NCBI GenBank assembly: GCA_043228905.1
Contig: JBHGNT010000016.1
Location: forward strand, 14,632,001-14,696,000
Length of the DNA stretch: 64,000 nt
Source: Azolla caroliniana
Lineage: Eukaryota > Plantae > Polypodiophyta
Direction: 5' to 3'
Shown here: positions 371 through 59,702 of the stretch, one piece after another
Layout of the letters: every line of letters begins with the position of its first letter
Numbering within the stretch: the first letter of the stretch is position 1
Notes under the pieces: generated by a model
Told to the model about the DNA's origin: nothing
Seen by the model: only the letters and a program-made list of their open reading frames with translations
The model's database searches: none
Position numbers and translations under genes: made by a program

Positions 371-696
371 AGAAGAAATCCTCCTCATCAAAGTTGATAC
401 TGATTCAATTTTTTTAACATGAATATGAGAGAGACGGATCCAGCAACCTCCCACATCAACACCTTTAGTTGGATATTATCTGAACTCTACTCCTAAGGGA
501 TTAACTTCAAAGAAGAAGTTAAAGTGTGTGCCCTCCTTTCGAGCTTGCCGGCGAGTTGGGAGGTATTCTGCATGACTTTTGCCAACTGCTGTTTGAATCT
601 AAATCTAAATGAGATGATCGAACATGTCCTAATCGAGGACATTTGGCGAAAATCGATGGGACGCACCATCGATGAGTCAACAAAAGCCCACCATTC

Positions 697-2295: not shown

Positions 2296-3615
2296 CATTC
2301 AACCGAGTCGATCGAACTATCCAATCAATTGAGAGAACAAGTCGAAAGAACCGGTCAAAACACTAGTCGACCAAGAAAGAGGGGAGATCGACAACGGTCA
2401 AAGTCAAGGAATAGTCAACCAAGTGACTTCTACACCCACTGCAGAAAAGTTGGTCATAATGTTTCCGACTGCTAGTCAATTAAAAGAAAGGAGAACCGTT
2501 CTCTAGTCAGTAACCAAATCAATGTTGTTGACTCCTAATCAGGAAAAATCCTCTCTCTAGAGGACTCGATGATTGGAGAAGTCCTCTGCAATGTGCAAGA
2601 CACACTAACATGGCTACTGGACTCCGGTACCACATTTCACGAGACCCCAAATATCTAATGATTTTCGAACTATTCAGCCAAAATTGACGGCACTATCCAA
2701 CTCGGCAATGGGCAAGAATGCAAAAATTGTCAAAATCCGCAAACTACCAAATTGTACTGCCGAATACAATTGTCCTGCACCATGTCCGGCATGTACCTGA
2801 GCTCAAAAGGAGTTTGGTCTCCATCAGCATGTTAGTAGAAGATGGGTACCGAACAACTCTCATCGAGTTGTCATGGATGATCAACCGAGCAAACATGAAA
2901 GTCAGGAATGGATGCAAGCACAACAACTTGTATCCATTAATGGCGATCAATCTAGAGGGCACGTTGAATGTAGTCGAATCGACCGACTCAAACCTATGGC
3001 ATGGCCGGCTCGGCCATAATCAATTTGTAATCGTCAAGAGCAATACGGCTCCAAATGTTGCAGGCATTATGGTCAGGCAAACTGTCGAACTACGACAGGC
3101 TCCGTATATTCGGATGCGAAGCCAATGCATTCATCCCCAGGGATAAGAGGACTGTTGAGAGACAAGCTCAACATCGGCCGGATCGGCTGAAGAAGCCGAG
3201 GACCGGATCGGTTGGGACCGATCGGTTAGGCTGAGTGTGTAAACCAAGAGGCCGTTAGGAAAGATATTCCGTGAGGAATATATTTGGGAGTTAGTGTAGG
3301 AGCTCTTAATGAGCATTGAAGTACCGGCAGTACTTCAGTCAGTCCTTCGAGGACTTGTATAAAAGTGTTCATGGAACACACATGTGTATAGAGTAGTGAA
3401 TCGAGATCTTTTGTTGTTGAATATTGTTCTTCTTTCTCTCTTTGTCTCTCCCGAGTATACTGTGTAAGCTCAACCTCTCCATTAAACCTGAGTTTTCTAT
3501 CTTCTGTTCGGTCTTCATACTTGCTTCCGCACGCTACTTTCTACATGGTATCAGAGCGCGAGGGTTGAGAACCTCTCTGCAGCCGACATAGTGACGAAGA
3601 AGAATAAGAAGAACG

Positions 3616-4689
3616 ATGGATAGAGGCATGGCGAGCTCGCTTCCAACAGAGAAGCTCGACAGAACGAACTACACGTCTTGGTCCTACAAGATGCACCAGT
3701 ACCTGCTCGGGCACGGCTACTGGAGTTATGTCGAAGGAGCTAATGACGCGGCACGTGAATCGACACACAAAGACTTCCCGTCGTGGGAGCAATCGGCGAG
3801 CAGGGTATTATACTGCTTCGCATTGTGTGTGGGCGAACAGCTATTGAGCTATGTCCGGGATGCAAAGACGCCAAAGGGTGCGTGGGAAAATCTGAAGAAG
3901 ATTTTCACCGCGAGCACCATAGCCAGGAAGCTCCAGCTCCTACAGGAGTTGAGCAACCTACGACAACGTGACTTGTCCGTGGCGGACTATACCTCGAAGA
4001 TCAAGGATATCTGCGACTCCCTCGCCTCCATAGAGGTGAACATCGAGGAGAGCGAGATGGTCCAGATCTATCTCGGAGGTTTGGCGTCGACATTCGGAGC
4101 GTTCCGAACGGTTGTGTGTACCCAGGAGAATACGTCGTCCTTTTTCGACTTACAGTCGATGCTCCTGGTAGAGGAGAACCACGCGGGTGCGTCGACGATC
4201 ACGCACACCGACAGCAAGATGTTGTACACGAAGGGAGAAAGGCCCCGTGGTCGTGGCGGACGAGGTGAGTCGGTACGCAATGGAAGCGGCCGACGAGATC
4301 AAGTAAGAAGGCACCGAAGTGATGCCGACAGCAACTCCGGACCCTCCGGAAACAGGGGGAGTCGAAGCGATGAGAACCCGCAAGGGAAGGCCATCGCAGA
4401 GTGCTGGTACTGTGGCAAGAAAGGCCACAGGGAAAGTGAGTGCTGGAAGAAGCGCGCCGATTCGGAGAGAACCGGTTCCAGAAACGACTCCGGACATACC
4501 AACAAGGGAAATCGGCAGCGATCGCACTACGCCGAAGACTCCGGGAGAGCCGGAGAAGGGACTGCCTTCGTGACAAGACACGAAGCAAACTCAATGAAGC
4601 AGACCACCCCGAGATCGGACGAGGTGTGGTACGTAGACTCTGGCGCGTCAAACCACATGACCTTTAAAAACCGATACAACCTGGAGTAG
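3616..4689 (+). pseudogene. Element B gag and protease N-terminus
   Basis: Copia gag, CCHC knuckle CWYCGKKGHRESEC and protease WYVDSGASNHMT, followed by a frameshift. Confidence 0.9.
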
Positions 4690-4841
4690 TCGCAACTGGA
4701 GACGACACTCCGCATCCGATCGCAAATGTCGGAGAAGTTCCCCTTAGCCATGTCGGGCAGAAAGGGAAACTCATGAACGTGTTGCACGTCCCGACAATCA
4801 CGAAGAACTTGGTCTCGGTCGGATAGATCGTCGACCAAGGG

Positions 4842-6515
4842 ATGGAGGTTCGGTTTACAAACCTCGGGTGCTTCATTGAGGAAGAAGGCCGTGTGATGGC
4901 GCAAGGGCGCAGAGACGGGAGGATGTTCATCCTCGACTCCACTGACGGCGGCATCGCAATGTTCGCGAAGGGAAGAAAAACCGAGTCGGACATCGACTTG
5001 TGGCACAAGCGGATAGGCCACGTCAACTACCAGCGGCTTCAAGATCTGCAATCGAAACAGGTAGTGTTCGGATTGCCCAAGTTTAGTGGCCGAAAGGCAC
5101 AAATTTGTGAAGCCTGCCAGCTCGGGAAGCAACACCGACTTCCTTTCCCCAACGAGCGAAACCGGAGCCGGAACAAGCTCGACCTTATACACTCCGATGT
5201 GTGGGGGCCGGCACAAAACGTTAGTCTTGGCGGGAGCCGATATTTCATCTCCTTCATCGACGACCACACGCGGCACACGTGGATCTACCTCATTGAGAGG
5301 AAGAGCGAAGTCTTCGACTGTTTCCGTGACCTCAAAGGGTTCGTGGATACGGAAATGGGACGAAAGATCAAGTGACTGCGGTCGGATGGCGGAAAAGAGT
5401 ACTTTTCCGGTCAATTCAATGGTTATCTACAACAAATGGGAATTCGGCGCGAATTCAGTTGTAGATACACGCCGGAGCAGAACGGTGTGGCCGAGAGGAA
5501 GAATCGGTCAGTTGTGGAAGCGGCACGGGCAATGCTGGAGGAGAAGAGCTTGCCCAAGCTCTACTGGGCCGAAGCGGTAAGGACTGCGATATATATCCAG
5601 AACCGGATCGGAGACAAAGTGTCGGCGCACAAGCTATATTTCGGAACGAAGCCGAACTTGCGACACTTGAGGGTGTTCGGTAGCATTGCGTATGTGCATG
5701 TACCGAAGGAGAAAAGGAGGAAGCTGGACGCAAAGGCCGAGAAATGCATCTTGGTCGGTTACTCGGACGAGCAGAAGGGTTATAAGTGCTATAACCCTCG
5801 CACCAAACAAGCGCGTGTTAGCCACGACCTTGTGTTTGACGAGTCCGCGTCCTGGTACCAGCCCCCGACTCCGAACCCCGACTCCAATCTGAGTTCTAAC
5901 GATGAGGTTAGCGAGGCCGAGATGCCTCCGAGTGAGCCCAAAATCGAGACCTGTGAAGAGAGTCCGATTTCACTCCGTTTAACTGGACCGATTGGACGAC
6001 TGAGTCGGTACGACCAGTCCGATGAAGAGCCGGCGATCAGTGGAGACTCGGTCGTGCATTCCCCGCGTAGGAAGCCGAGGAGACGGCTTACGCGCAAAGA
6101 GAAAGGGAAGAAGAAGGTGTCGGATTCCGGTGACGGGTCTTTAAAAGTGAAAACCGTGTCGACCGAGAAGGCCTCGACATCGGCTAATGTGAGATTACGC
6201 CGGTCTACCCGCCAGAAGAATCATGTTTTGCGGTTCGGATACAATGAGTACATGGCGCATCATTATGCGTACATGACCCGTGTAGCGGAAGTGCGTGAGC
6301 CGGAGAGCTACGCAGAAGCGGCTAAAGACGCGAATTGGCGTGCCGCGATGGAGGAAGAGATGCACGCATTGGCGGAGAACGAGACCTGGGACCTAGTTGG
6401 CACACCAACAGGGGTAAAACCGATCGGGTGTAGGTGGGTGTACAAGGTCAAGTACAACACCGATGGCTCAGTCAACCGGTACAAGGCTCGGTCAACCGGT
6501 ACAAGGCTCGGCTAG
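4842..6515 (+). pseudogene. Element B GAG-pre-integrase, integrase and RT start
   Basis: LWHKRIGH, CEACQLGK, HSDVWGP and QNGVAERKNR motifs. In-frame stop at 5373; a 20-bp duplication at 6471-6510 shifts the frame. Confidence 0.9.
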
Positions 6516-6580
6516 TGGCAAAGGGCTACACGTAGAAACACGGCATCGACTACGATGAAACTTTTGCGCCGGTCGCAAAA

Positions 6581-8386
6581 ATGACGACCGTCCGTGTTTT
6601 GCTCGCAGTAGCCGCGGCCAAGGGGTGGCACCTACATCAAATGGATGTAAAGAATGCGTTCCTGCAAGGTGACCTTGAGGAACAGGTGTACATGGTACAG
6701 CCTCCCGGATTTCACTCGGGAACGAACTCCTCGGCAGTATGCCGACTGAAGAAGTCCCTTTACGGACTGAAGCAAGCCCCGTGTGCTTGGAACGCGAAGA
6801 TCACGCAACAACTGCGTCGGATGGGCTTCATCACGTCAAAATCGGACTCTTCCCTGTTCATCCGGAAAGGTCGACTCGCACCGGTTAGTATTTTACTATA
6901 TGTTGATGACTTGGTCATCACCGGCGCCGACCTAGGTGAAATCGACCGCGTGAAGCTTCAGCTTGCGGCATCGTTCAACATGAAGGATCTGGGGGACCTT
7001 CATTACTTCCTCGGGATCGAAGTGAGCCGTACCCCCGAAGGCATATTGATCAGCCAACGTCATTACGTGTTGAGTATGCTCTTCAAATTCGGGATGGCCG
7101 ACTGTAAGTTCGTCTCGACTCCTCTGGACAGAACCGTCAAGCTTCGTCCCGATACGGGAAAGGTATGCGACCCGACGAGGTTCCGACAAATTGTCGGAAG
7201 CCTCATATACTTGACCATCACCCAACCCGACCTCAGTTATCCGGTCGGAGTGATCAGTCAATTCATGGTGCGACCTACCGAGGAGCACCTTCAGTGTGCG
7301 CAACGCATACTTCGGTATATCAACGACACTAAGGACCGGGGACTGCTATATCGAACCGGTGCAGCCGCGCAGTTAGTCGGCTACACCGATGTTGATTGGG
7401 CTGGCAACGCCGCCGATCGCCGATCCACGTCTGGATACGCGTTCTCCCTCGGGAGTGCCGCGATCGCGTGGAGCAGTAAGAAGCAGCCGACAGTTGCATT
7501 GTCGAGCACCGAAGCTGAATACCGAGGAGCGGCTGTCGCGACATGCGAAGCCATATGGTTGAAGCGGCTACTTAAGGATCTGCAGGTGGAGGTGTCCGAT
7601 CCAACGACGATCTACTGCGACAACCTCAGCAGCATCCAGCTCGTGAAAAACCCCATTTTCCACGCACGGACCAAGCACATTGAGGTGCACTACCATTTCG
7701 TCCGTGAGCGTGTCCTTTCCGGTGAAGTCGAACTTCAGTACGTTCCGACGGATCGGCAGACTACCGACATCTTCACCAAGCCTCTTGGTCTAGACAAGTT
7801 GCAACAATTCTCAGGTGCGCTCGGGTTGCGTCACCTTGACGTGCCGAACTTGAGGGGGAGAACAGTCCCGAACGACCAAGCAAGGCAGCAGGAAAGGAGC
7901 GGAGACCGCGACACCGAGTCGATTGTCGAGTTCGACTTCGGATCGGCTGAAGAAGCCGAGGACGGACCCGCGGGGAAGTCCGGAAGCAGACAAAAGGGGA
8001 GCAACCGAAGGAGAGAGCCAAAGCCAACCACGCATGGGGAAGATGACGCCATCGAGGGCGAGAAGACCGAAGACGAGTTGGAGACAGCCAACTCGGACGA
8101 GAGCGAAAACCGATCGGAGGTAGCCGAGTCGGTTCGGATGTTTGATTCAGACACGCTAAATCAACCGAGGCCCAAGCGGAAGAAAAGGAAGCAGGAGAAG
8201 CGTCAACACCGCAACAACAGAAGAGCTGATAAGGGCCGCATGAGCAGACAAGCCGACCGGAAGGGTCGAAGCGCGCGGAGTCGAACAGGTCGAGGAGCCC
8301 GAGCGAGGCGTGAAGCCAAGAGGAACCGGAGCTGTGAGCCCGATGATCCCGAAGAGCCTCGAGTTGAGCTTGAGGGGGAGTGTTGA
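6581..8386 (+). CDS. Element B reverse transcriptase, RNase H and charged C-terminal extension
   Basis: QMDVKNAFL, LYGLKQA, YVDDL, AEYR and KHIEVHYHFVRE motifs. The ORF runs through the PPT and stops inside the 3' LTR. Confidence 0.9.
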   Translation: MTTVRVLLAVAAAKGWHLHQMDVKNAFLQGDLEEQVYMVQPPGFHSGTNSSAVCRLKKSLYGLKQAPCAWNAKITQQLRRMGFITSKSDSSLFIRKGRLAPVSILLYVDDLVITGADLGEIDRVKLQLAASFNMKDLGDLHYFLGIEVSRTPEGILISQRHYVLSMLFKFGMADCKFVSTPLDRTVKLRPDTGKVCDPTRFRQIVGSLIYLTITQPDLSYPVGVISQFMVRPTEEHLQCAQRILRYINDTKDRGLLYRTGAAAQLVGYTDVDWAGNAADRRSTSGYAFSLGSAAIAWSSKKQPTVALSSTEAEYRGAAVATCEAIWLKRLLKDLQVEVSDPTTIYCDNLSSIQLVKNPIFHARTKHIEVHYHFVRERVLSGEVELQYVPTDRQTTDIFTKPLGLDKLQQFSGALGLRHLDVPNLRGRTVPNDQARQQERSGDRDTESIVEFDFGSAEEAEDGPAGKSGSRQKGSNRRREPKPTTHGEDDAIEGEKTEDELETANSDESENRSEVAESVRMFDSDTLNQPRPKRKKRKQEKRQHRNNRRADKGRMSRQADRKGRSARSRTGRGARARREAKRNRSCEPDDPEEPRVELEGEC

Positions 8387-10501
8387 GAGACAAGCTCAAC
8401 ATCGGCCAGATCGGCTGAAGAAGCCGAGGACCGGATCGGTTGGGACTGATCGGTTAGGCCGAGTGCGTAAACTGGGAGGCCGTTAGGAAAGATATTCCGT
8501 GAGGAATATATTTGGGAGTTAGTGTAGGAGCTCTTAATGAGCATTGAAGTACCGTCAGTACTTCAGTCAGTCCTTCGAGGACTTGTATAAAAGTGTTCAT
8601 GGAACACACATGTGTATAGAGTAGTGAATCGAGATCTTTTGTTGTTGAATATTGTTCTTCTTTCTCTCTCTGTCTCTCCCGAGTATACTGCGTAAGCTCA
8701 ACCTCTCCATTAAACCTGAGTTTTCTATCTTCTGTTCGGTCTTCATACTTGCTTCCGCACGATACTTTCTACAAGGACCAAGTTGGCACCCCATGCACTT
8801 AAGTGTATATTTCTTGGTTATGGAAGTGATGGGGACTTTGGCTATCAGTTGTGGGACCCAAAGAACCGGAAATTGATCCGGAGTAGTGACGTAGTTTTCA
8901 ATGAAGACTTAATTCCCTCTCAATGAAACCAACTAAAAATGTCTCCTTCAATATCGACAGAGATGCTAGTACAAATATGTATGTCATTCAGGCAAGCCCA
9001 AATACAAAGTTCAGCTCATCGTAAAGGGATTCAAACAAGAACATGGGGTCGCCTACAATGAGATATTCTCACTAGTAGTCAAGATGATCTCCTTTTGATT
9101 CCTACTTGGGGTCATGGCGATTGAAGACCAAGAGCTCAAGCAGTTGGACATTAAAGACGACATCCCTACATGGAGACTTGGTAGAAGACATCTATATGTC
9201 TCAACCGGCAAGCTTCACAACGATGGGGGAGGAAGGTCACCTCGTATGTCTATTAAAGAAAAGCATGTATGGCTTAAAACAATCGCCGAGGATGCGGTAT
9301 TAGAAATTTGATACCTACATTCGGCAACTCGACTACTGCCGGTCCGACTTCGACGCTTGTATGTATATTCAACAATTGGCAAAAGAGTCCCGTATCTATC
9401 TAATCCTATATGTCAATGACATGCTCATTGCAGGGACCAATCAAGTATAGATCGGAAAACTAAAGCGGAGCCTTCACGACAAAATTGTGAATCATGAAGA
9501 AACTCATGCAAGCCCAACACATGTTGGGAATGAGGATCGAGGGAAATCGGATGACAAATACTCTTTGACTCTCCCAATCTGACTACATTCATAAGGTGTG
9601 GAAGCGCTTCAGCATGAAGAACCTGAAGCCAGCATCGACTCCGCTACCAACGTTGATCAGACTATCGAACAAAGACTCTCCTTCGATAGGTGAGGACAGA
9701 AGGCTCAATGGAAAGATACCCTACACATCGCCCGTAGGAAGTATCATGTACGCAATGGTGGCGACCTGGCCCGACCTTGCCTATGTCGTAGGGGTCATTA
9801 GTCAATACATGTCAAACCCAGGATGGAAGCATTGGGTGGTTGTCAAGCACATCTTTAGGTATCTCAGAGGAACCAAGGATGCACGTCCTACTTTCCAATC
9901 GGCCAATCCGACCAAAGTTGAAGGCTATACTGACTCCGACTATGCCGGAAATACGGATAATTGGAAGTCGATATCAAGCTATCTTTTCACATATGGTGGT
10001 CGAAGCTTCAAGAGTGCACAACACTATCTACCACATAGGCTAAGTGCATAGCAGCATCGGAGGCAACGAAGGAAGCCATCTATCTGCATCAACTGTCAAT
10101 TAACTTTTCGGTGACAAGACAAATCGACCATCCAATGTCAATCATTTATTGCAACTCTCAAAACTCTATACACCTCATTTAAAATCCAATCTATCATGTA
10201 AAGAAAAAACACATTGAGGTGCGGTTTCATCATATCCATGAGCTCCTAACAGAGAAAAAGCTCGAAGTCCAAACAATCAACACCAAGGTGAATATTGTCG
10301 ATTGCCTGACAATGCAACTTCCAGATCAACATTTCAAAACACTGAAGACAATGATGGGGCTAGGACAAGAGCCCGAGCAGAAAGAAGCCAACGAACAACA
10401 GCAGAAGGGAAGATGAAGGTCGACCCAGTCGGACGAACCAAGAAGGCAAAATCCAAAGAGTCGGAATACCGGGAAGATGAAGATGCAACACTGAGCGAGG
10501 A

Positions 10502-10563
10502 TGTTAGGGGCATGACCATGTAATATCCCATGGTGAGAATTTACCATAGCATTCTATACACGT
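10502..10563 (+). repeat. 62-bp U3-end stub of the element C LTR, inverted relative to 24225-24286
   Basis: Reverse complement of 24225-24286 with about 5 mismatches; preceded by GAGGA. Confidence 0.9.
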
Positions 10564-11033
10564 TGTTGTGCCTTTCGGCGCCGGATCGTTGCGTGAGTCC
10601 GGTGGGAACAGCCGGGGTTTTGGACTAGGAGGAGGAAGAATTTGAGGCTAATCTAGTTATGAGTAGATTACAAGAAAGAGATATAGAAACTTGTGAATCC
10701 CACAAGTATAGATTATTAGATTTATTACTATTTAGAATCCTAATAACAATTTATCATAGATTGGAAGAGATAGATTATATAAAACTTCGTGAATCCCACG
10801 ATTATATTTTATTAATTGATGTTTTAGGAAATATATCCAATTTCCAAATATTCCACACCCCCCTTTACATTGTGCTCCCCATCCTTATATAATGATGAGA
10901 GAGTCTTCACAATCCATGTTTTTTCGCACACTTACCCTTAGACAATGTCTTAGAATTGTGAGGTACACGTAAAAATACCTTCTGTCCAGGGTGGAATACA
11001 TAAAGTTGCCTAGGATGATCGACATAAAAACGT
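10564..11033 (-). mobile_element. Element D: partial LTR of an ACGY-targeting Gypsy-type element
   Basis: Starts TGT(T/C)GTG after ACGT. Its terminal segment resembles the reverse complement of the E LTR end and the F LTR end. Truncated by E. Confidence 0.6.
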
Positions 11034-14000
11034 TGTCGTGGAGAAAACCGTCCCTAGACAGAAACCGGGTATAATGTGCGTAAACCGGCCCTTACACATG
11101 GGCACAAGTTTTGTTGTATAGTACGTAGGTAGGTACAAGTCGCCTAAGGCGAAATCCTAGGTAGTACGCGTTCGGTAGGGAGGAAATCGAGGTGTATCCC
11201 TGTCCGAAAGGACAGGGAATAAACATGATGTAACGAGTGGTAACGGCCTCCCTCCTTGGGTTATAAAAGATAGGGAGAAGTGAGAGAAAGATATCGCATT
11301 TTGGGGAGCGAGGAGGAAGTGCTATCGAACCGGGACCGAGCTCTCTCCTCCATTGTTCAACTTTCTCTGCAGGATTTCGGACTGTGTAGCCTCTGCTTCG
11401 TGGACAGCCCGTGTGCTTCCGGCAGAGGCTCCACTATGCAATCGGGATGTGTGCATGCGTGAGCATCATGTGTGTGTGTGTGTGTCCGCCTGGGTTGGGT
11501 CCGTCGCCAGCTTGCCAGTTGTAATCGTTGTCGATTGTAATTAAGACTTTTTTCTCTATCTCTTTCCTCCTCTGTGTTTCTGCAAGCTGATCTCTCTGTG
11601 TTCCTCCTCTGACTCCATCGCGGACTTGGTGAAGCGGAAGAGGCTCTCGACAGAACCGGAACTGGAGAGGCCGGTGGAAGTGCGGACGACACACTTAGAG
11701 GACACGGCCCTAGAGGATGAGTTGGCGGAAAGCCACTACGCGAAGCCGCATTGGGTTAGGGCCACTACGGAAACCCCTTGTTCGGATTGGCAATGTCCAA
11801 GAGCCGGTGATGGCATTGGTAGAACACGGTTCGGAGATCAACCTAATGTCCATGGACTTCTATAAAAGGGGGAAATGGCCGATCAACACCAAGCACGGGT
11901 GGAAGATACGCGCGGCGATGCACACTACAGAGGAGCTGCATGGTGCGTGCCCGAATGTACGCGTGAAGATCGACGACGTCGAGATAGATCAGCACTTCTT
12001 TGTGCCGGAGACTTCCTCGCACCCGGTAATTTTCGGCGAACTGTACATTACGGCAGCGCGCATGGAGACGAAAGTACTGGACAACGGTTCGGCGTATGCG
12101 CGCGTCAAGAGCCAAGACACCCTGGAAAAACCCCATAAATGTACTATAGGCAAAAACACCTGTACCATAGGTAGAAAATTTTGGTTCTCCGATAGCGGCG
12201 GTTGTACGATAGACGGCGTAATTGGCCGGGAAAAGAAGCGGACGGAGGAGCGGCTTTGGGCGTGCGAAGTCCTCAGCCCTGAAGAGGAAATCAATGGAGC
12301 CGTGCAGGCAGTCTCTTTCGACGACACCTTGGGGAAGTTATGGGAGGTGTTCGGAGAAGGCCTTAATGAGGACCGGATGATTCCGGTATGTTCGGAAAAC
12401 ATGTACGAAGTCATCGCCGACTTCGGTAGTGGACTCGAGTCGGATCGGACGGCCCAAGTGGATACGAAGTACAAGACTGTGGACCGGAAGGTGAGGCCAG
12501 TCGTGGAACCCTTGCCGGAGGGCAGCGAGTTACGGATAAAGGGGGTTGCATCAAACCCAAGTTTACGAACTCCGGCCAGCATAGGACACACGTTCACCGA
12601 CGTAACACTACGGGAGCTCAAGATCAGTGGGGGTGGCTTTCTACTACCGGCGGAAGAGGACCGGTTTCGGAGAATGCTCGGGAGGCACAGGAAGGCTTTC
12701 GCATTCTCACTAGATGAGATCGGGTGCGTCGACCCGAAGGTTGTGGAATCAATGGTGATCTTCACGGTACCGCATGTGCCGTGGAGTCTCAAACCGATTC
12801 CAGTACCCAGAGCTCACATCCCGAAGCTGATGGAGCTACTGAAACAGAAGGTGGAGATGGGCATCCTCGAACCGTCAAGTGCCCCATATTCGAATCGGTG
12901 GTTTACCGTGCCGAAGAAGAACGGCACACTGTGCTTCATACAGGACCTACATACGGTCAACAAGGTGACCATTCGAAACGCAGGTATCGGACCGACCATT
13001 GATGAGTTCGCGGAGGCCTTCGCAAGGAGGTCGATCTACTCGATCGGGGACCTGTACTCAAGCTACGATCAGTTCCAGCTAGCCATAGAGAGCAGGGATG
13101 TCACGACGATGCAGACTCCTCTCGGCCTAGTTCGGATGTGTACCTTGCCGCAAGGAGGAACGAACTCGGTGGCGCACATGGTGAATGCGATGAACAAGGT
13201 GTTGAGGGACTGCATTCCAGACATCACCATGCCGTTTCTGGACGACATCCCGATCAAAGGATATCCAGTGGAGGACAAGGACGAGTCTATCGGGCCCGGC
13301 GGTTGCCGAAGGTTTGTGACGGATCACATCTACAAGAAAGTGCTACAAAGACTTGATAGCGCGCGGCTCACCTTATCCGGAGAAAAATCAGCATTCGGAC
13401 AGCTGGAGATCCTGGTAGTCGGACACCTGTGCGGGCCCTATGGCCGGAAACCGTCCCCGGCAAAGGTAGAGGCCATCTCCGTGATGAAGGACGATTGCGG
13501 GTCGGTTATGGAGGTCCGCAGATTCTTGGGTGCATGCACGTTCTACCACATCTGGATTCCGCACTACGCACATGTCACGGAACCACTCTAGAGGCTATTG
13601 AAGAAAGGGTGTAGGTTCGAGTGGAGGACGGAGCACATGGAGTCGGTCTGGAGGCTGAAGGAGGCGCTTGCTGCGGCACCGGCTCTCCGGAAAGCGGTTT
13701 ACGGCAAGTCGCCATCTACGTGACGGTGGACACGAGCCCGATCGGGATCAGGTGGGTGATCAGTCAGGAGGACAAGGACGGCGTACAGTTCCCAATCTGT
13801 TTCGGGGCGAAGGTATTGAGCGAGTGGCAGCGAGGATACGCCCAAGTTCAGCGCGAGTTGTGGGGTATCGTTTCGGCAGTAAAGGCCGACAAGGACTATC
13901 TGATCGGGACGGAAGTGGTCATCGAGACGGACTGCCAACCGATTCTAGGTCTGGTCTCCGGATGCGCGACTCCGGACCTGGCGATGCTCAGGTGGATCGC

Positions 14001-16243: not shown

Positions 16244-17664
16244 ACGCGCTCTATCTTGAGCTGTTTTTATATTATCTCGTGCAATATGCAACATATCCTG
16301 CATATCCCGAAGAAAGTTTTGCGTACTTCGCAACTCATCATGATGTATATTAACATCAATCGGGGCTCGTGGCTGAAAACCATACATCAACATAAAAGGA
16401 CTATATCCCGTCGGCGTATGCTTGGAGCTGTTATAAGCAAACTCCAAAATTGGGAGATAACGTTCCCATTTTTTTGGTTTTGCACCAACGTATGCTCGAA
16501 GCATGTCCTCAAGAATTTGATTTACTCGTTCTGTTTGTCCATCGGATTGAGGATGATCCGTGGAGCTCATGCTCAACGTAATTTCTAACTTCTTAAAGAC
16601 TTGTGTCCAAAAGTTACTAGTAAATTTTTGATCTCGATCACTCACAATATCCATCGGTAACCCATAAAAACAAAATAACTCGTCAACGAATTGGTAAGCC
16701 AATTCAAGAGTTGTTACCGTGGTTTTAGTAGCAATAAATCTAGCCATTTTAGTTAGTCTATCAACAACAAACCAAATGGCATCATGGCCTTTTTGGGTGC
16801 GAGGATGGCTAACAATAAAATCCATGGATATACTTTCCCACTTATTATTGGGAATGTCCAAGGGATGTAAAAGTCTTACGGCTTTAAGTCGCTCGGCTTT
16901 GTTAACCTGACATTGGTGACATTTAGTCACATAGCTATGTATGTCAGGGCGCATCTTAGGCCAATAGAATTGAGTGGAGATGAGAACAAGTGTGCAATGT
17001 ATTCCAGGGTGCCCTGCTAAGGGTGCATCATGGCATTCAAAAAGAATCCTCTTTTTGACCTCGGGGAAATCTGGAACACAAACCTTCCCATTACGGTAGA
17101 GCTAATCGTTAGCAATTGTCAAGATTCGAACTCTTGACACGACCATGTTATAATCTACTATTATGAGTTAACCAAGATATCTAGTACTAGTTATGTATGT
17201 AATTGGTCCTTATTATTTTGCTAGCATCATGTGCATAGTTGCTCCCTTGTAGTATTTACACTTGGCACATGCATGCATACCTACATGCTCTATTGTAGAT
17301 TCACATGCGTGCAACAAGTGTGCATGCCATGTAGTATAAATAGAGGAGTTCACCTTGAAGGAATTCAAGGTGAACAACACCAGTTATGGAGTCTTTCCTT
17401 TAGTACTATCTTCTTTCTTGTCCATTTGGTTATCTTCTTGCTTGTCTCTTGAGTTTATGATCCGTGACAGTTTGTTCACCTTCCAACTAGAAGCATCACC
17501 CGTCTTCGTCATCACCCTTGCTTCTAGAGTTACCATCGTCACCGTACCATCATCAACATCGCTTCATTTCCTATCTTCCTCGCCATTTCTATCTCCTAGT
17601 TTCTTCTCATCATTTTCATTGGCTTTTAGATTCTCCTCATCTTTGTCTCTATTTTTTAGTTTCT

Positions 17665-18205
17665 TTCGTGTTCGTGTTCGTGTTCCAGTTCCCGGTGAGG
17701 GCCGCACAAAGCCACTCACTCCCGTTGATGTTCGTGTTCCAGTTCCCGGTGAGGTCTGCACAAGGCCGCTCACTCCCGTTGGTGTTCATGTTCTAGTTCC
17801 CAGTGAGCGCCGCATGGTCGTTCACGCCTGTTGGTGTTCGAGTTCCCGGTGAGGGCCGCATGGTCGCTCATGCCCGTTCGTGTTCCTGTTCCAGTGAGGG
17901 CCACATGGTCGCTCACTCCCGTTCGTGTTCCAGTCTCTGGTGAGAACTGCACATGGTCGCTCACTCCAACTATTGTTCGTGTTCCAGATCTTGGTGAGGA
18001 CCGACATGGTCGCTCATGCCCGTTGTTGTTCGTGTTCCAGTTCCCGGTGAGGACCACACATGGTTGATTACTCCCGTTTGTGTTCCTGTTCCTGCTGAGG
18101 GCCACATGGTCGCTCACTCATTCGTGTTCCATTTCTCGGTGAGGACAACATGGTTGCTCACGCCTGTTGGTGTTTGTGTTCCAACTCTCAGTGAGGACCG
18201 TTCTA
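17665..18205 (+). repeat. Tandem array of ~11 degenerate 44-54-bp units in element G
   Basis: Approximate consensus gttcgtgttccagttcccggtgagggccgcacatggtcgctcactcccgttggt. Confidence 0.9.
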
Positions 18206-18582
18206 GTTCCCGCCTTCCATCCCACTTCCGGATTCACGATGTTTTTCATGTCTCCCTCCTCGAACCCCATTATGCTTCACAACTCCCAGGACGTCAAGCC
18301 CCACCACCACCACCTGTGCAGTTGACGACAGGGGAGGAATACGAGGTCGACCAAATCCTTGACTCGCGTTGGCACCGTCGACACTTGCAATACCTCGTCC
18401 TATGGAGGGGTTACCCCATGTCTGAGGCCACATGGGAACCATCGGCAAATTTACAAAATGCCCCAGAGGTCGTCCAAGATTTTCATCACCGATATCCCCA
18501 CAAACCAGCGGCCGATTTGGGAAGGCGGCGTAAGAGGGGGGATAATGTCAAGATTCGAACTCTTGACACGACCATGTTATAA
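18016..18582 (+). CDS. Repeat-derived N-terminus fused to integrase tail and chromodomain
   Basis: IHDVFHVSLLEP, then EYEVDQILDSR..YLVLWRGYPMSEATWEP, a group I chromodomain with aromatic residues intact. Confidence 0.7.
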   Translation: MPVVVRVPVPGEDHTWLITPVCVPVPAEGHMVAHSFVFHFSVRTTWLLTPVGVCVPTLSEDRSSSRLPSHFRIHDVFHVSLLEPHYASQLPGRQAPPPPPVQLTTGEEYEVDQILDSRWHRRHLQYLVLWRGYPMSEATWEPSANLQNAPEVVQDFHHRYPHKPAADLGRRRKRGDNVKIRTLDTTML

Positions 18583-21500
18583 TCTACTATTATGAGTTAA
18601 CCAAGATATCTAGTACTAGTTATGTATGTAATTGGTCCTTATTATTTTGCTAGCATCATGTGCATAGTTGCTCCCTTGTAGTATTTACACTTGGCACATG
18701 CATGCATACCTACATGCTCTATTGTAGATTCACATGCGTGCAACAAGTGTGCATGCCATGTAGTATAAATAGAGGAGTTCACCTTGAAGGAATTCAAGGT
18801 GAACAACACCAGTTATGGAGTCTTTCCTTTAGTACTATCTTCTTTCTTGTCCATTTGGTTATCTTCTTGCTTGTCTCTTGAGTTTATGATCCGTGACAGC
18901 AATGTGGAAGTATTCCTTCGAGGATGTGGTGGTGTCTGTTCCAGACTCAAGTCTTGCCCAGCCAATAGAATTGAGTGGAGATGAGAACGAGTGTGCAATG
19001 TATTCCAGGGTGCATCATGGCATTCAAAAAGAATCCTCTTTTTTACCTCGAGTAAATTTGGAACAAAAACCTTCCCATTACAGTAGAGCTGACCGTTAGC
19101 AATGTGGAAGTATTCCTTCGAGGATGTGGTGGTGTCTGTTCCAGACTCAAGTCATGCCCAGTATTTTGCAAAATAACTGTCATCAGGATACTTTCCTCGA
19201 AGGTGATCATAAAGATTTGATGATATTTCAATGAAGCTAAGTATGTTAACTTCATGGATGCGACTTAGTGCATCAGCGACAGTGTTCATGGAACCTTTAC
19301 GATATCGTATGGAAAAATCAAAGTCCCGGATGAGATCAGCCCATCGTGCCTTACGACCTTTCAGGTCTTGTTGGTCACAAAAATATTTCAAGGACTCATG
19401 GTCCGTAGTTACCACAAAGCAATTTCCATAAAGATAATGGCGCCATGTTTTGAGTGCATGTATAACTCCAAATAATTCCTTTTCTTGAACGGTATACCGA
19501 CATTGAGAAGAGTCAAGTTTCCAACTCTCGAATGCTATTGGTTTACCATCTTGATATAAGACAGTGCCTATAGCATAATCGCTTGCATCGGTTTCAACCT
19601 CAAAAAGTTTTGAAGGATCTGGTAAAAGAAGTGAAGGAGCCTTGCACACCAGGTCCTTGAGTTCCTTGAAGACGAGGTCTAGTGTAGCATTCCAGACAAT
19701 AGGTTTTGTAGACTTAGGCATTTGACCTTTTAGAAGTAAACGTCATCGTCAATTGGGAGTAATTACAAAGGGACTTTCGCAAAAACCAGACAAAACCAAG
19801 GAATGATCGAACTTCTCGAATGTTCCGAAGAGTGGGCCAAAGCTTGATTTTCTCGATGCGAGAAGGATCAATTTCAACTCCTCGTTTGGTTATGAGATAT
19901 TCAAGATAAGTAATTGATTTCTTGAAGAACTCACATTTTGAGATCTTCGCATAAAACTGTTTGTCACGCAATGTTTGTAAAACAAAGCGGACATGTTTAG
20001 CATGTTCATGTAATGTATGGCTATAAACTAAAATATCATCCAAGAAAATAACGACAAATTTTCCAAGTTGTTCTCGGAAAATGTCATTCATTTCTTGTTG
20101 AAATGTAGCCGGAGCATTGGTCTAACCAAAAGGCATAACCAAAAACTCATACTAGCCATAGCACATACGAAATGCCGTTTTAGGAACATCGTCCTCACTT
20201 ATACGTATTTGATGGTAGCCAGTACGGAGATCAAGTTTCATAAAATACTGAGCTCCCTGGAGACGGTCAATTAGATCGTCAGCCCGGGGCAATGGATACG
20301 AATTCTTGATCGTCACTTTATTCAAGCGTCGGTAATTAATGCACATACGCCATGTGCCCTCTTTCTTTTTAACCAAGAGAACTGGTGCACCCCATGGAGA
20401 TTTACTATAACGTATATAACGCATTCGTAAATAGTCCTTGAGTTGCTTAGATACCTCATCCTCTTCGGATCGACTTAAGCGATAAGGAGGTATACTTATT
20501 GGTGCAACGCCTGGTACAATATCTATACAATGGTCTATATTACGTTTAGGAGGTAACCCATCTGGTAGTTCATTCGGAAAAACATCACGAAACTCATTTA
20601 AGATTTCATCAAGTTGTTGTTGTTCAAAACATGTTAATTGAACCGAGACATTATCGATATTGTAAACGTGAATGTCCGGATCAAGTACACAATAAAATAG
20701 AGTAGAACAAGACAACTCGGATATTGATGGAGAGGAAATAATCGAGAGGGATTGGTTTTTTACACATTGAATAAAATGAGTACAATCATTCAGTACAAAG
20801 GAAATGGAATGATGAACCCAATTGATAGATAAAGAAGAGTTTTTTATTATAGAACCAAGGATAACCCAGTATTACATCAGTGGTACAAAGATTCATTACA
20901 TGGAAGCCTACTTCCTCTATGTAAGTATCAATAGAAATTCCTAATGAATGAATCGCCCCGTTGATGTATTGTACTCTTCCATCAGTCAAGTGCACCGTAT
21001 AGGTGTGATCACTTACGTTGGGTTTGATTCCCCATATCTGAACCAAACGATCATTCACAAAATTGTGTGAGCTTCCCGAATCAAACAAAAATTGTACGGG
21101 AGATCCATTGATATACCCGTTTGCATGTAGTAAATCATTGGGACCGAATACATAGTGAGGGAAAGAACATTGACAATTACTTAAATGATGTGTATAGACC
21201 TGAAGGACATTAGGAATCTGACCTTCATGGTCTGCAGCTTTAGCTTTGCTATCATGCTCTTTCTGTTGGAGCTTTCGACATTGCTCTTTTGTATGACCCT
21301 TCTTTTTGTAGTATACGCAAAAAGGATGTTGTCGCTTACAATTGCAATCCATGAATTCATTGGGTGTCTTGCGTTTCCCAACAAATTGCGACTGCTTAGT
21401 CACGGGCGCTTCGTTGGGTTTGTTGTAGTCCTTCTTCGAAGTGCGTAGATAGCAAAGAATTATTTCAACGGCCTCTTCGAAGGATTTTAGATCCTTATCG

Positions 21501-28805: not shown

Positions 28806-28913
28806 TGTCAAGAATAGTACTAAAACATAGAGAGAATTAGTACTAGAGAAGGGAAGTACTATTAGTACTAAGAGGATGGACTGCGTAAGACTCATGAGAG
28901 AGAGACAATGAAG

Positions 28914-28952
<39 letters not shown>

Positions 28953-31900
28953 ATGATAACAGATGATATATTATGTGAAGAGTAAGTACAAAATAGCTAT
29001 GAGGCTTAAGACTGGCGTTGAACCAATTTGGTTCGAAATAATGCCTTGTGCCTCTTTTTATAGTGTTCTCAGGAATAGTCCTAAAGCTTCTAGAATGTTC
29101 CAGAGAAATCTGGAATATACAATAATTCTCTATAGTAAAACTTAAATGAAAATAATATCCTACATATTACAATAGGTAATGTAATGGCCAAGAGCTCAAC
29201 CCATATAACATAAGTTTATTGGTTCAAGTCTTGCCATATCATGACACTATCCCCCCCTTAAGATGACGAGTGTCACGAGTCAGCACTGATTGTGGACCGG
29301 GTTTGTCCGAATACTTTTGGTAGAAATCAGCAAGAAGATCCTTTGGCGACATGCTCGACGGGTTCCCAAGTAAGTTCACTCGGACTATAGCCAAGCCAAT
29401 CGACCAAATAATAAAGTTTGTTGTGAACAAACTTGGAGTCGAGGACAGCAGCAACTTCATACTCTGGGCCGGTGTCCAATGCAAGCAAGGGCGGCGGTGG
29501 TGTATACGATCGGGAATAGTGTTGGCCTGATAAGGTTCGAGAAGAGAACTATGGAAGACTGGATGTATCTGAAGGTGCGGAGGAAGATCAAGGCGGAACG
29601 TGACATCATTAATCTTGCCGGTAATACGGAAAGGACCCAGTCATTGATAATCCAATTTGTTGCACGATCGAGTTGTCTTGATGTGACGACGTAAGATCCA
29701 TACTCGATCTCTGATGGCAAAAGAGGAGGGAATCCGATGACGATCTGCATAAGTCTTCTGAGTGTGTTGAGCATGACGAAGATGAATAGATAGATCCGTC
29801 TGAATCTTGCATAGCCTCTCCAGATGATCCTCGGCAAGAGGATTGGTAGGTAGCTCCAGAGTGTCGATCACAGACCAGCGAGGATGAGAACCAATATAAG
29901 CATAAAATGGCAAGACCCAAGTCGAGGAGTGAATATCGTTGTTATACGCAAACTCCGCAAAGTGGAGAATATCAGCCCAATCGTCTTGTTGATAACTCAG
30001 AAAACACTGAAGATATTGTTCCAGTGTTTGATTCATTCGTTCCGCTTGCCTATCGGTTTGGGGATGGTAGTTAGAGGAGAGGTTGCAAGAGACCTTGAGC
30101 ATCTTGAAGAGATGCTTCCAAAATTTGGAGACGAATTGAGGTCCTCAGTCACTCATGATACTGTCTCGGAGGCCATGATGCCAAAATACCTCACGCATGA
30201 CAAGGGTTGCAGTTTCCTCACTAGTGATGGCCTTAATTCAAGACGCAAAATGTGCCATCTTAGTATATCAATCGACGACGGATAAGATAGCATCGAAACC
30301 CTTCGAGACTGGAAGATCTGTGATAAAATCAAGACAAATGGACTCCCATAGCTTACTTGGAATTGGTAAGGATTCCAACAAGCCATATGGATGATGTCGT
30401 GGCATCTTTGCTCGACAATAAGCATCACATGTCCAAACATAGTCCTCGACAAAACGTCACATATGGGGCCACCAAAAGGATCGTCGAACTAGATCCAACG
30501 ACTTAGTACTACCGAAATGTCCAGTTGTATGGGTGTCGTGACAATTTTGGACGATTTGAAGGCGACAGGAGCAATCGGGAACATGGACGAGCTTTTTAAA
30601 GAATAATAACCCATCATGATATTCAAATTGTCGGTTGTCCATACCTAGTTGTTGAGACTGGGAACAGGATGCCCGAGAGGCATCAATTTGCACTAGAATG
30701 GCTTGAGCAAAACTATCCGTCTTCAAGTTGACACGTATGGCATCGATAATCCGGGAATCCAATGTAGTGAAAAATCCGCGTTGTGTGCAAACATGTTGGT
30801 CCCAAGATTACCTGCTTTTGATTATCAAATGTTGGATCACCCGGACGAGGTGCAATATATGAAGGTCGCGATAGTGCATCTGCTTTTCCTTGTTGCTTCC
30901 CCGGCCGATATGTGATTTTGAAGTCAAAACATGTGAGGAATTGGGCCCACTGAGCTTGCCGTCGATTTAGTACACGAGCGTTCTGGATGGAAGTAAGCAA
31001 GATTTTTGTGATCACTGAAGACGATGACCTGATGAGGAGAGCCCTCTAAGAAGTGTCGCCATTGCACAAACGAATCCACGATGGCTAATAACTCCTTGTC
31101 ATGTATCTTGTAGTTAATTTTTACTGCATCAAATTTGCGTGAGTGGAAAGCCACAGGATGTAACTTTTCTTTATCTCCTTGTTGTGAAAGGATGCTACCG
31201 AGGGCAAAATCCGATGCGTCAACCTCCATGATGAATGGTTTGTTTGTATCCACATGAGCTAGAATAGGAGTTGGTGTAAAGGCTTTCTTAAGATGCATAA
31301 AAGCCATGTCCGCTTCATTGGACCAAAGAAATGATTATCCCTTCTTGGTAAGCTGTGTGAGAGGTAAAATAATCTTCGAGTAATCTTGCATAAACTTGTG
31401 GTAGAAGTTAGCAAAGCCTAGGAAACATTGCACATCTCGTAACGAACGTGGAGTTTGCCACTCTAGCACAGTTTGGACTTTAGCTGGATCCATGGAGATG
31501 CCTTTTGAGGAGATGACATAGCCTAGAAATTCCACTTGCTTGCAGTCAAAGCTACATTTTTCTAGTTTGGCATAAAGACCATGCTCTTGGAGTCGTTTTA
31601 GTACTAATAGTACATGAGAATCATGCTCTTCATGGGTCTTCGAATAAATCAATAGATCATCCAGATAGATGATCAACAGATATCCAAGAGATCTCTGAAT
31701 ATATCATTTGTCGTGTGTTGGAAGACTGTGGGCGCATTGGTTAGACCGAACGGCATAACAGTATACTCAAAGTGCCCACATTGGGTGCGAAAAGCAGTCT
31801 TCCATTCGTCTCCCAGTCGGATCGGCGCGAGGTTATATGCTCCTCGTAAGTCGATTTTTGTAAAAAACTTGGCACCATTTACACGTTCTAATAGACTTGA

Positions 31901-34333
31901 TATAAGGGGAAGTGCATACCTATTCCGAATGGTGACCATATTCAAGCCCTGCTAATCAACGACGAGATGAAGGGATCCATCTTTCTTTTTGACAAAGAAA
32001 ATGGGTGCACCTGCCAGAGATTTCAAATGACGAATAAACCCACTTGCCAAATTCTCTTCTATGTAGGCTCGAAGGACTTCCAACTCGGTTGGTGACAAGT
32101 TGTAAATCGGTCCCCACGGTGGCTCTGTTCCTAGTTGTAAATCGATGGGACAATCATAGGGACGATGATGAGGAAGAGTACCAGCTCTGACCATGTCAAA
32201 TACATCGGCATAGGGATGATATTTCGCGGGAAGTTGAACTAAGGATTCCTTTTTAATAGTGCTGGAAGGATGTACTAATATTGCAAATAGAAACATTGAC
32301 TCCTTGTGTCCTTCTTCGCATAATTGATGGAGCGAAATGGTCGAAACTCGATGAGTAGCTTCTCGGGGTTGTCGATTCCGGACTTCTCTTGTTCTCCAAT
32401 CTATGTCTGGATTATGTACTTCAAACCAAGGTAATCCCAAGACAATGGGATGCTCTGGACTACTAATTATATTAAATGATACCATACACACAAAGTTATC
32501 TAGGACAACCTGAATGGGTTCTGACTCTTCTACGATATTCCCAAAAGCAATGGGACGACCATCAATGACTACTACAGATGCGGGGCAAGGAAGTTTTCTT
32601 AAAGATATCTAAGAAGCTTGGGCAAAATTCCGAACCATGAAATAGGAATTGGCTCTGGAATCTAAAAGTGCTAAGACATGTACTAGAGGGGTACTTTTAG
32701 TACTAATTATGACTTGGGCTAAGAACACATGGTTAACTTGCTTAGAGGGAATGGAACCACTAATGGGCTGCACAAATCTAGGGATGTCCAACCAAACGGC
32801 TCCTATTTTGGCTGAACTTAGTCATTTAACTCTTCCTCTAATTGACTAAGGATTTCAAATTTGTTTGAGATACTTGGGCTATCAGTACTATTAATACTAT
32901 CAAACACTCCTAAGGGAATTTACTCGAGTTTAGTACAGGCTACGATTTGATTTACCTGTCTTCTTGGCCTATGGGGACAGTTGATGGCGATATGCCCTGG
33001 TCCACCGTAATAAAGACATAATCGATTTGCATGTCGTCGTTGCTTTTCTTGTTCCGATAACGGGCCCCGTCGACACATGGTGTCGATCTCCATCAGCGTC
33101 AGAGTATTTGCCTGCGATACATCTCGTGCAACCGGTTTAGCTGCGACTGGGGTGTATGTGGGCTCTAGCCTAGTGCGTGGCATTTGAAATTGACGTTCCG
33201 AACGTCGTTCGAAAAAGCGGTTGTTGCATCGGACCACTCGACTAATTGCCTCTGTAAGAGATTTTGGTTCTTCAGGAAAGGTTAAAAGTAAATCTTTGAC
33301 GTCGTTTCGTAGGCCATAGCGGAATTGCTCCATTAGTGCTTGATCATCCCCCGGGGATATTTGAGGCAAGTAGACGGAAATCCGCCGTGTAGGCAGAGGC
33401 TGGACAATCACCTTGATGCAATCGTCGGATTTTGTTGATCGTCGTCCTGATGTTGTCGGTATCTCCAAAGCAGGCTTTAAACTCACTAATAAAGTCTTCA
33501 AAGTTATTAAGCAAGGGAGATTGTTTTTCCAAAAGCGGAGCGAATCATGCCAAGGCTGAGCCACTAAGCAACGTGCCTATTAGGCCTACTCGAGATACAT
33601 CAGTGGGGTATCGGGAAGGATGCATTTGCATGACTAAGAGTACCTAATTAAGGAATCCTCTTAATTGTGAGCGAGTTCCATCGGTATCTCCGAAGTAGGC
33701 TTTAAACTCGCTAATAAAGTCTTCAAAGTTATTAAGCAAGGGAGATTGTTTTTCCAAAAGCGGAGCGAATCATGCCAAGGCTGAGCCGCTGAGCAACATG
33801 CCTATTAGGCCTACTCGGGATGCATCAATGGGGTATCGGGAAGGATGCATTTGCATGACTAAGCGTACCTGATTAAGGAATCCTCTGAATTGTGATCACG
33901 TTCCATCGAATTTCACAGGAAGACCAATCTTGGGCTCTTTATGAAGTCCTTGGGGACTTGATCCTTGTTGTTGTAACGCTACGATGGTTGCTTCCAGTTG
34001 TTGTACGCGTAACGCTAACTCCCCATGTTGTTGTTGCGTTTGCTGTTTTTCTAAAGCAATTTGTTGAAGATCCCCTAACAATCATTGGTTTTCTTGTTCC
34101 AATGCAATGAATTTTTCTTTTAGACACTGTAGCTCAAAAAAAATGGATTGATATTCCTAGGCGTTAACAATAGCCATAGTATTGGAAAAGGGGGTAAGAG
34201 GATGAGGGAAACCAAAAAGAAGACCCGAGGGAGAAATTGGTTCAAACTGTCAGGAATAGTACTAAAACAGAGAGAAAATTAGTACTAAAGAAGGGAAGTA
34301 CTATTAGTACTAAGAGGACGGACTGCGTAAGAC

Positions 34334-34384
<51 letters not shown>

Positions 34385-34678
34385 ATGATAACAGATGATA
34401 TATTATGTGAAGAGTAAATACAAAATAGCTATGAGGCTTAAGACTGGCATTGAACCAATTTGGTTCGAAATAATGCCTTGTGCCTCTTTTTATAGTGTTC
34501 TCAGGAATAGTCCGGAAGCTTCTAGAATGTTCCAGAGAAATCTAGAATATACAATCATTCTCTATAGTAAAACTTAAATGAAAATAATATCCTACGTATC
34601 ATAATAGATAATGTAATGGTCAAGAGCTCGACCCATATAACATAAGGTTACGGGCTCGAGTCTTGCCATATCATGACA
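28806..34678 (-). mobile_element. Element H: Tcn1-like chromovirus (Ty3/Gypsy), degenerate
   Basis: LTRs at 28806-29246 and 34248-34678, PPT at 29247-29261. gag, RT (PPWGPIYNLS, YLDD), RNaseH, integrase and chromodomain [23 protein letters not shown] (~29300-29480). Confidence 0.93.
33456..33905 (-). repeat. 225-bp tandem duplication in element H gag
   Basis: tcggtatctcc at 33456 and 33681, colinear thereafter. Confidence 0.85.
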
Positions 34679-40694: not shown

Positions 40695-40720
40695 TGATTC
40701 ACTACTGCTGCAATGTTTGT

Positions 40721-59700: not shown

Positions 59701-59702
59701 GA
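53787..59702 (+). mobile_element. Element A paralog: 5' LTR (53787-54047), PBS, gag-pol remnants
   Basis: PBS TGGTATCAAAGC at 54050 and gag KFDRKNFALWKEMMQDVL. Retains the integrase core missing from copy 1 and lacks element B. Confidence 0.9.
54964..56562 (+). mobile_element. Element M paralog
   Basis: Same position as 697-2295 plus 54267; TSD CATTT/CATTC. Confidence 0.92.

What the first reader, a model, noticed from the sequence alone, without database searches (positions are those of the whole stretch)
17117..18898. Very young mini-chromovirus: self-primer, tandem array and stand-alone chromodomain
Seen: identical 353-bp LTRs, a perfect TSD and no gag, PR, RT or integrase core. The interior is a pyrimidine-rich leader, ~11 units of a ~50-bp repeat, and an undamaged integrase tail plus chromodomain in a 188-aa ATG ORF that starts in the array. 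Inference: a recently mobile parasite of a Tcn1-like helper. It could express a free methyl-histone reader (decoy or anti-silencing), with the array acting as a packaging, protein-binding or siRNA platform. This is the best candidate here for an undescribed system.
Basis: partly seen in the sequence, partly recalled or inferred. Interest (0 to 1): 0.8.

Follow-up and report, generated by a model that had tools for sequence, protein, structure and literature searches.

The report
Parasitic retroelement that captured helper's tail
This young 1.8-kb jumping element joins the gene-less, repeat-filled body of an abundant parasitic family to the tail of a complete helper retrotransposon, likely through a copying switch between the two RNAs, so its chromodomain is probably a passenger and not a free histone reader.

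Summary
The anatomy is real: identical 353-bp LTRs, a 5-bp target duplication proven by an empty site nearby, an 11-nt self-primer, an 11-unit array and an intact chromodomain.

It is a chimera with one junction at 18212/18213. The 5' side is 92% identical to a non-coding mini-LTR family found in metagenome contigs (LTR, self-primer, leader, array, short linker, PPT, LTR). None of 49 array ends there leads into gag-pol or a whole chromodomain. The 3' side matches a full-length Tcn1-like Pol at 122 of 122 residues. No listed contig in three runs bridges the junction.

An older capture of the same tail, in 5 loci, is truncated and frameshifted, and has a stop in 4 of them. The 188-aa ORF lies behind 10 upstream ATGs. 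The free methyl-histone-reader idea is therefore not supported; the chromodomain most likely rode along because it lies before the PPT.

What remains of interest is a self-priming, array-filled parasite family with two co-varying primer/PBS types, caught taking its helper's 3' end. Satellite-filled non-autonomous LTR elements, coding remnants and template switching are already described in sugar beet. Interest 0.3.

The parts
17112..17116 (+). 5' copy of the 5-bp target-site duplication (GCAAT)
   Evidence: empty site with one copy at 19099-19103
17117..17469 (+). 5' LTR, 353 bp, TG...CA; likely taken whole from the helper family
   Evidence: U3 is 87-90% identical over aligned columns to parasite subfamily A; R-U5 has no significant match in 44 loci
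17335..17341 (+). TATA box
17348..17375 (+). 12-bp inverted repeat straddling the predicted transcript start
17367..17377 (+). Predicted self-primer (first 11 nt of the RNA)
17472..17482 (+). Primer-binding site complementary to the self-primer (type A)
17483..17674 (+). Pyrimidine-rich leader of the non-coding array family
   Evidence: 94-98% identical to the leaders of L001, L003, L007, L023, L033, L040
17675..18212 (+). Tandem array of 44-54-bp units (11 plus a partial one); the typical unit can fold into a bulged hairpin
   Evidence: collinear with L001 and L007 up to 18212
18016..18582 (+). 188-aa ATG ORF: array-derived start fused in frame to the helper tail; probably incidental
18212..18213 (+). 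Junction between parasite array and helper integrase tail
18213..18545 (+). Helper-derived 3' end: distal SH3-like part of integrase, proline linker, chromodomain
   Evidence: 122/122 residues identical to the tail of the 1182-aa Pol P0235
18340..18492 (+). Chromodomain (type I, three aromatic cage residues present)
   Evidence: PF00385 E 6e-17; cage positions recalled from HP1
18532..18542 (+). Polypurine tract
   Evidence: sequence
18546..18898 (+). 3' LTR, identical to the 5' LTR
18899..18903 (+). 3' copy of the target-site duplication

Best explanation
The element joins the leader and tandem array of a non-coding mini-LTR family to the integrase tail and chromodomain of a complete Tcn1-like retrotransposon, most likely through one template switch while the two RNAs were being reverse-transcribed in the same particle. 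Inferred steps: (1) The parasite RNA is co-packaged with a helper RNA. (2) Minus-strand synthesis self-primes and copies the helper's U5-R, U3, PPT and last 333 nt of pol. (3) It jumps at 18213/18212 into the parasite's array and copies array, leader and PBS. (4) Both RNAs would need the same 11-nt primer/PBS pair, so plus-strand transfer works and the helper's integrase inserts a copy with two identical helper LTRs. The parasite would gain an up-to-date promoter and integrase ends. The chromodomain comes along only because it lies between the switch point and the PPT, and in an older capture it has eroded. The array most likely acts in cis as RNA (packaging or dimerisation); that step is untested. 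Shown: the two-part mosaic, the junction, the helper protein, the decayed older capture. Inferred: co-packaging, template switch, helper origin of R-U5, array function.
For: 5' part: 677 of 736 aligned bases match L001, ending exactly at 18212, including an unusual shortened unit shared with L001, L003, L005 and L007. 3' part: identical to P0235 over 122 residues, including those read into the LTR; 11 full-length tails differ from it by 0-10 residues and from each other by 1-10. In runs X1, X5 and X18, listed contigs stop at 18212 and go on with more array, or start at 18212-18214 with integrase sequence before them. Depth at the junction falls to the level of the stretch's edges (979 against 1203 and 1107 in X1). 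Of 49 array ends in 39 loci: 31 short linker then PPT-LTR, 6 broken chromodomain remnant, 6 contig end, 6 other; 0 lead into gag-pol and 0 into a whole chromodomain. The remnant joins the array about 176 nt further 3', has a 22-nt deletion and, in 4 of 5 loci, a stop. The window's R-U5 matches none of 44 loci. Template switching in non-autonomous LTR elements is reported in PMC13570524 (passages read).
Against: No DNA of the helper could be read, so its LTR, PBS and 5' UTR are inferred from protein and loose ends only. No genome is held and the best run holds only 0.60 of the words, so copy number in the source individual is unknown. One search showed 24 of 522 pieces, and depth at the junction is not zero, so a few copies could hide. 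There is no clear microhomology at the junction. The loci come from short-read metagenome assemblies, possibly of other species and possibly chimeric at repeats. No array element with both LTRs and a TSD was recovered among them.
Confidence: 0.68

Rival explanations
1. It is a DNA-level or copying deletion of one larger precursor: an autonomous element that carries the leader and array in its 5' UTR, or a tandem parasite-helper composite, lost everything between the array and the integrase tail. The chromodomain is again a leftover.
For: A single blunt junction is equally what a deletion gives. Tandem and chimeric arrangements of the array family occur in L003, L004, L007, L025 and L033. The helper's 5' UTR was not seen.
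Against: 0 of 49 array ends lead into gag or pol. In the closest relatives the array continues past the junction point into more units, a PPT and an LTR. The window's other Tcn1-like element has a short 5' UTR without an array.
Confidence: 0.14
2. The recombinant has already founded a small, mobile subfamily in the source lineage. The chromodomain is still a passenger but is present in several young copies.
For: It has all cis signals, a matched primer/PBS and identical LTRs. The older capture did spread: 5 loci, 4 of them with near-identical remnants. The runs examined are probably other individuals.
Against: No bridging contig is listed in X1, X5 or X18; 0 of 44 loci have the junction.
Confidence: 0.13
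3. One reading: the element is selected to express a free chromodomain that binds methylated histones as a decoy or anti-silencing factor, with the array as its platform.
For: The 188-aa ORF is open and in frame, and only one of three frames has an ATG open to the junction. The aromatic cage is intact.
Against: The tail is identical to the helper's, so youth explains its integrity. Ten ATGs precede the start codon on the predicted RNA, and its context is weak. ATG-led open frames over arrays are common in non-coding relatives (12-208 aa across 40 loci, five of 187 aa or more). Most relatives lack the domain and the older capture is broken. The exact protein is not in the 15-billion collection.
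Confidence: 0.04

Closest known systems
Tcn1-clade chromoviruses of mosses and lycophytes (Neumann et al. 2019, PMC6317226; Novikova et al. 2010, PMC2864245; passages read)
   Same: Self-priming PBS, type I chromodomain with aromatic cage, 5-bp TSD, T-rich sequence after the 5' LTR. The helper Pol has PR-RT-RH-IN-chromodomain.
   Different: This copy has no gag-pol and carries a satellite array. The helper's RT was not placed on a tree.
Non-autonomous LTR retrotransposons of sugar beet (Maiwald et al. 2026, PMC13570524; abstract, sections 25, 32, 37 and passages read)
   Same: Ten families have internal satellite-like arrays; 15 keep POL remnants such as INT or chromodomain (7 without GAG/PROT); retention is patchy among copies; tandem copies, chimeras and template switching occur.
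   Different: The PBS motifs listed there are all tRNA-derived; here priming is by an 11-nt self-primer with two co-varying types. Here the helper is identifiable by an identical tail.
TRIMs and tandem-array TRIMs (Gao et al. 2016, PMC4717578; passages read)
   Same: Small non-coding LTR elements with 5-bp TSD, tandem LTR-internal-LTR runs and a Ty3/gypsy link in Selaginella.
   Different: Larger than most (mean 685 bp there; 1782 bp here). That survey found no TRIM in Physcomitrella patens. This copy keeps coding DNA.
SARE/SNRE LTR swapping in soybean (Du et al. 2010; title seen in reference lists only, paper not held; content recalled)
   Same: A non-autonomous family renews its LTRs by recombination with its autonomous partner.
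   Different: A different host and lineage. Here self-priming adds the constraint that primer and PBS must match, and a coding tail is carried along.
Tf1/Tj1 self-priming (PMC4600332; passages read)
   Same: The 5' end of the RNA pairs with a PBS just after the LTR; an 11-bp duplex plus an inner stem is predicted.
   Different: Those are autonomous fungal elements. The start site and cleavage were not shown here.

Membership tests
Non-autonomous LTR retrotransposon | Two LTRs with TG...CA ends, TSD, PBS and PPT | tested here: met
Non-autonomous LTR retrotransposon | Lacks complete gag-pol | tested here: met
Non-autonomous LTR retrotransposon | This exact architecture is multi-copy | tested here: inconclusive
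   Junction not seen in the listed contigs of 3 runs or in 44 loci; no genome held. The leader-array body is multi-copy.
Tcn1 chromovirus (helper side) | Self-priming PBS | tested here: met
   11-nt complement; 3 of 20,000 shuffles. The transcript start itself was not mapped.
Tcn1 chromovirus (helper side) | Type I chromodomain with aromatic cage at the end of Pol | tested here: met
   cage positions recalled from HP1
Tcn1 chromovirus (helper side) | RT-RH-INT phylogeny within the Tcn1/Tf1-Sushi branch | not tested
   No named references were at hand. The only organism-named hit of the tail was a basidiomycete yeast.
Tcn1 chromovirus (helper side) | Non-seed plant host | tested here: inconclusive
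   Apart from one longer angiosperm protein at 48%, the best named hits of the window's GH81 gene are ferns at 61-73%; other seed plants 50-55%. Moss or fern is not settled.
TRIM (strict sense) | Short element with non-coding interior | tested here: not met
   1782 bp with a 333-bp coding remnant. The parent family is non-coding, with interiors of 745-1508 bp.
Free-chromodomain anti-silencing system (proposed) | Chromodomain kept intact across copies | tested here: not met
   0 of 49 array ends have a whole chromodomain; 6 have a broken remnant
Free-chromodomain anti-silencing system (proposed) | ORF is transcribed and translated; protein binds methyl-H3 | not testable with these tools
   Only contigs were served; needs RNA-seq, Ribo-seq and binding assays
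Cassandra, retrozyme or other structured-RNA element | Known RNA family inside the element | tested here: not met
   No Rfam match at E up to 1

The most novel reading that the evidence does not exclude
A self-priming, gene-less parasite family uses a tandem array of bulged RNA hairpins as an amplified packaging signal to crowd into Tcn1 particles. It repeatedly renews its promoter, integrase ends and primer by taking helper 3' ends. The 11-nt primer/PBS pair acts as a compatibility lock that decides which helper each subfamily can recombine with. The window's copy is one such capture caught before the coding tail eroded.
Probability: 0.25. Interest if true: 0.55.

Novelty: new variant of a known kind. 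Interest (0 to 1): 0.3.

Why it matters
Partnerships between gene-less LTR elements and their helpers are hard to reconstruct; only 30 of 115 sugar-beet families could be linked by sequence (PMC13570524). This copy names its helper by an identical tail and shows a fresh and an eroded capture side by side. If the array is a packaging signal and the primer/PBS pair restricts recombination, it gives a small, testable model of how a parasite keeps pace with its helper. It also warns that an intact domain in one young copy is no sign of function.

Tried and rejected
Other copies in the window: none. Viral contigs: nothing for the tail or an array motif. Prokaryote genomes: nothing. Rfam: nothing.

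RNA evidence: the one declared RNA run, X20, laid 0 contigs on the junction stretch. It is another organism with a 0.06 share, so this says nothing. X18 is probably DNA.

Hairpin selection: 465 units (306 distinct) were found in 40 loci plus the window. Stem pairs form in 85-95% of units, but no more than expected from independent columns (83-96%). The whole array folds no better than shuffles (z +1.8 on the plus strand, +2.0 on the minus). Wobble-preserving changes outnumber breaking ones (164 at 7 sites against 89 at 8), but this is confounded by methylation-prone contexts and shared descent. Inconclusive.

Array as a coding repeat: rejected, 5 of 10 spacings are not multiples of three. The 78-nt linker as a remnant of another helper's tail: only short, weak matches (E about 0.01-0.3), not accepted. 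Complete array elements with TSD: none recovered.

Rows dropped: L013, L020, L028 and L032 (single isolated motif hits) and L006 (one unit at a contig end) were left out of the 49-end count. L007 is internally duplicated and counts twice in several tallies.

Not found in print: a self-priming non-autonomous or array-bearing Tcn1 derivative, in seven full-text searches (mostly listings only). Repeat libraries and supplements were not read and may hold it.

Full report
Observation. The element spans 17117-18898. The LTRs are 353 bp and identical, GCAAT flanks both ends, and a nearby duplicated copy of the target shows the empty site with one GCAAT. It interrupts a decayed minus-strand Ty3 element (integrase and RNase H domains). 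Eleven bases after the 5' LTR pair with LTR 17367-17377, 32 nt after a TATA box; 3 of 20,000 shuffles do as well, and the predicted fold has this duplex plus an inner stem. The array has 11 units of 44-54 bp. The 188-aa ORF carries a full chromodomain and a cut SH3-like domain. Zero LTR differences bound the age at about 0.3-0.7 Myr for assumed plant rates, and 4 Myr at 1e-9 (rates recalled).

The 3' part belongs to a complete helper. A search of longer proteins found P0189, a 1183-aa PR-RT-RH-IN-chromodomain polyprotein, 96% identical over the whole tail, in a cluster of 42. Of the 15 cluster members listed, 11 have the full tail. They differ from the window by 0-10 residues and from each other by 1-10; P0235 is identical at all 122, including the residues read into the LTR. 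The chromodomain is therefore no better preserved than any recent copy of the helper.

The 5' part belongs to a non-coding family. One array motif found 44 metagenome loci; 39 hold arrays of two or more units. Their layout is LTR, PBS, pyrimidine-rich leader, array, short linker, PPT, LTR. Of 49 array ends, 31 run through a short linker to a PPT and LTR, 6 through a broken chromodomain remnant, 6 hit a contig end and 6 are other (two of these are short linkers, one missed by the pattern and one interrupted); none leads into gag-pol or a whole chromodomain. The window's leader and array align to L001 at 677 of 736 bases and stop at 18212, where L001, L003 and L007 go on with more units. In public runs the LTR, leader, array and tail all lie at depths in the thousands, against about 8-50 for most listed longer pieces, in organisms A, B and C. 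The tool warns that this is no copy number; I read it only as highly repeated.

The junction looks rare. On 18140-18300, listed contigs of X1, X5 and X18 either end at 18212 and continue as array, or begin at 18212-18214 with integrase sequence before them. Depth at the junction falls to the level of the stretch's edges. One X1 contig matches 18145-18212 with no difference and then continues as array, so the parental type exists in that run. Only 24 of 522 pieces were shown and the runs are probably other individuals, so a few copies are not excluded.

An older capture has decayed. L001, L003, L007, L008 and L043 join the array to the middle of the chromodomain, about 176 nt further 3'. They have a 22-nt deletion, a further 18-nt deletion in L003 and the like-length L001 and L007 linkers, a stop in four loci, and 62% residue identity over the last 32 residues.

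Self-priming co-varies. Of 19 LTR-PBS junctions in the loci with both parts present, 11 pair a type B primer with its PBS, 4 pair type A with type A (as in the window), and 4 are mismatched; 5 more lacked the upstream part. Types A and B differ at 4 of 11 positions on both sides. L007 counts twice, the spacing from TATA was partly fixed by my pattern, and the mismatches may be recombinants or assembly chimeras.

Mechanism. One template switch between co-packaged helper and parasite RNAs gives exactly this product: helper LTRs at both ends, helper PPT and tail, parasite PBS, leader and array (pathway as reviewed in PMC6894440, passages read). The window's R-U5 matches none of the 44 loci, which fits a helper origin, but helper DNA was not read. 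Translation of the ORF is unlikely: ten ATGs precede it, and open frames of similar length are common over arrays of non-coding relatives. Against this, only one of three frames is open from an ATG to the junction. The typical unit can form a bulged hairpin, but covariation and folding tests gave no support for selection on it. A packaging or dimerisation role is my best guess, at under even odds.

Comparison. It works like the satellite-filled, remnant-bearing, template-switching non-autonomous elements of sugar beet (PMC13570524) and like LTR swapping in soybean (recalled). Its helper fits Tcn1 by self-priming and chromodomain type (PMC6317226, PMC3350952; passages read), without a tree. It is not a strict TRIM. 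Seven searches found no self-priming, array-bearing Tcn1 parasite; supplements and repeat libraries were not seen. The host is probably a non-seed plant.

Verdict. Observation confirmed; free-chromodomain system not supported; new variant of a known kind; interest 0.3.

Noticed in passing
window 17348-17375; L002:418-456; L003:2926-2964; window 34448-34490 (-): In all three primer types the end of U3 carries an inverted copy of part of the primer, so the predicted start sits inside a palindrome (12, 7 and 6 bp stems). In the 3' LTR RNA this hairpin could hide the second primer copy from the PBS; untested.
   Followed up: partly
window 28806-34679 (-): A second, decayed Tcn1-like chromovirus with 92.5% identical LTRs, its own 11-nt self-primer/PBS pair, a short 5' UTR and no array; about 48-54% identical to the helper Pol.
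   Followed up: partly
window 18095-18109 and 18422-18435: The array unit core matches the chromodomain's EATW codons at 14 bases with one gap; 26 of 1000 shuffled tails score as well. A weak, after-the-fact hint that the array arose from chromodomain DNA.
   Followed up: partly
L003, L004, L007, L025, L033: Tandem runs of array elements sharing LTRs, often of different subtypes, like tandem-array TRIMs; some may be assembly collapses.
   Followed up: no
L001:1400, L007:3263 and 6546, L033:2867 (oriented coordinates): LTRs with a type B primer before a type A PBS; if real, these are recombinants that could not self-prime.
   Followed up: partly
window 16960-17116, 18904-19161: The host Ty3 element has a ~200-bp tandem duplication (8 of 97 and 1 of 58 differences) that preserves the empty insertion site.
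   Followed up: yes
window 38670-40790 (-): Intronless glycoside hydrolase 81 (beta-1,3-glucanase) gene amid retrotransposons; named hits of highest identity are ferns at 71-73%.
   Followed up: partly
window 1-11979 and 54268-61168: Two copies (about 97% alike) of a long LTR element; the first is interrupted by a nested element with LTRs at 3149-3548 and 8377-8776.
   Followed up: no
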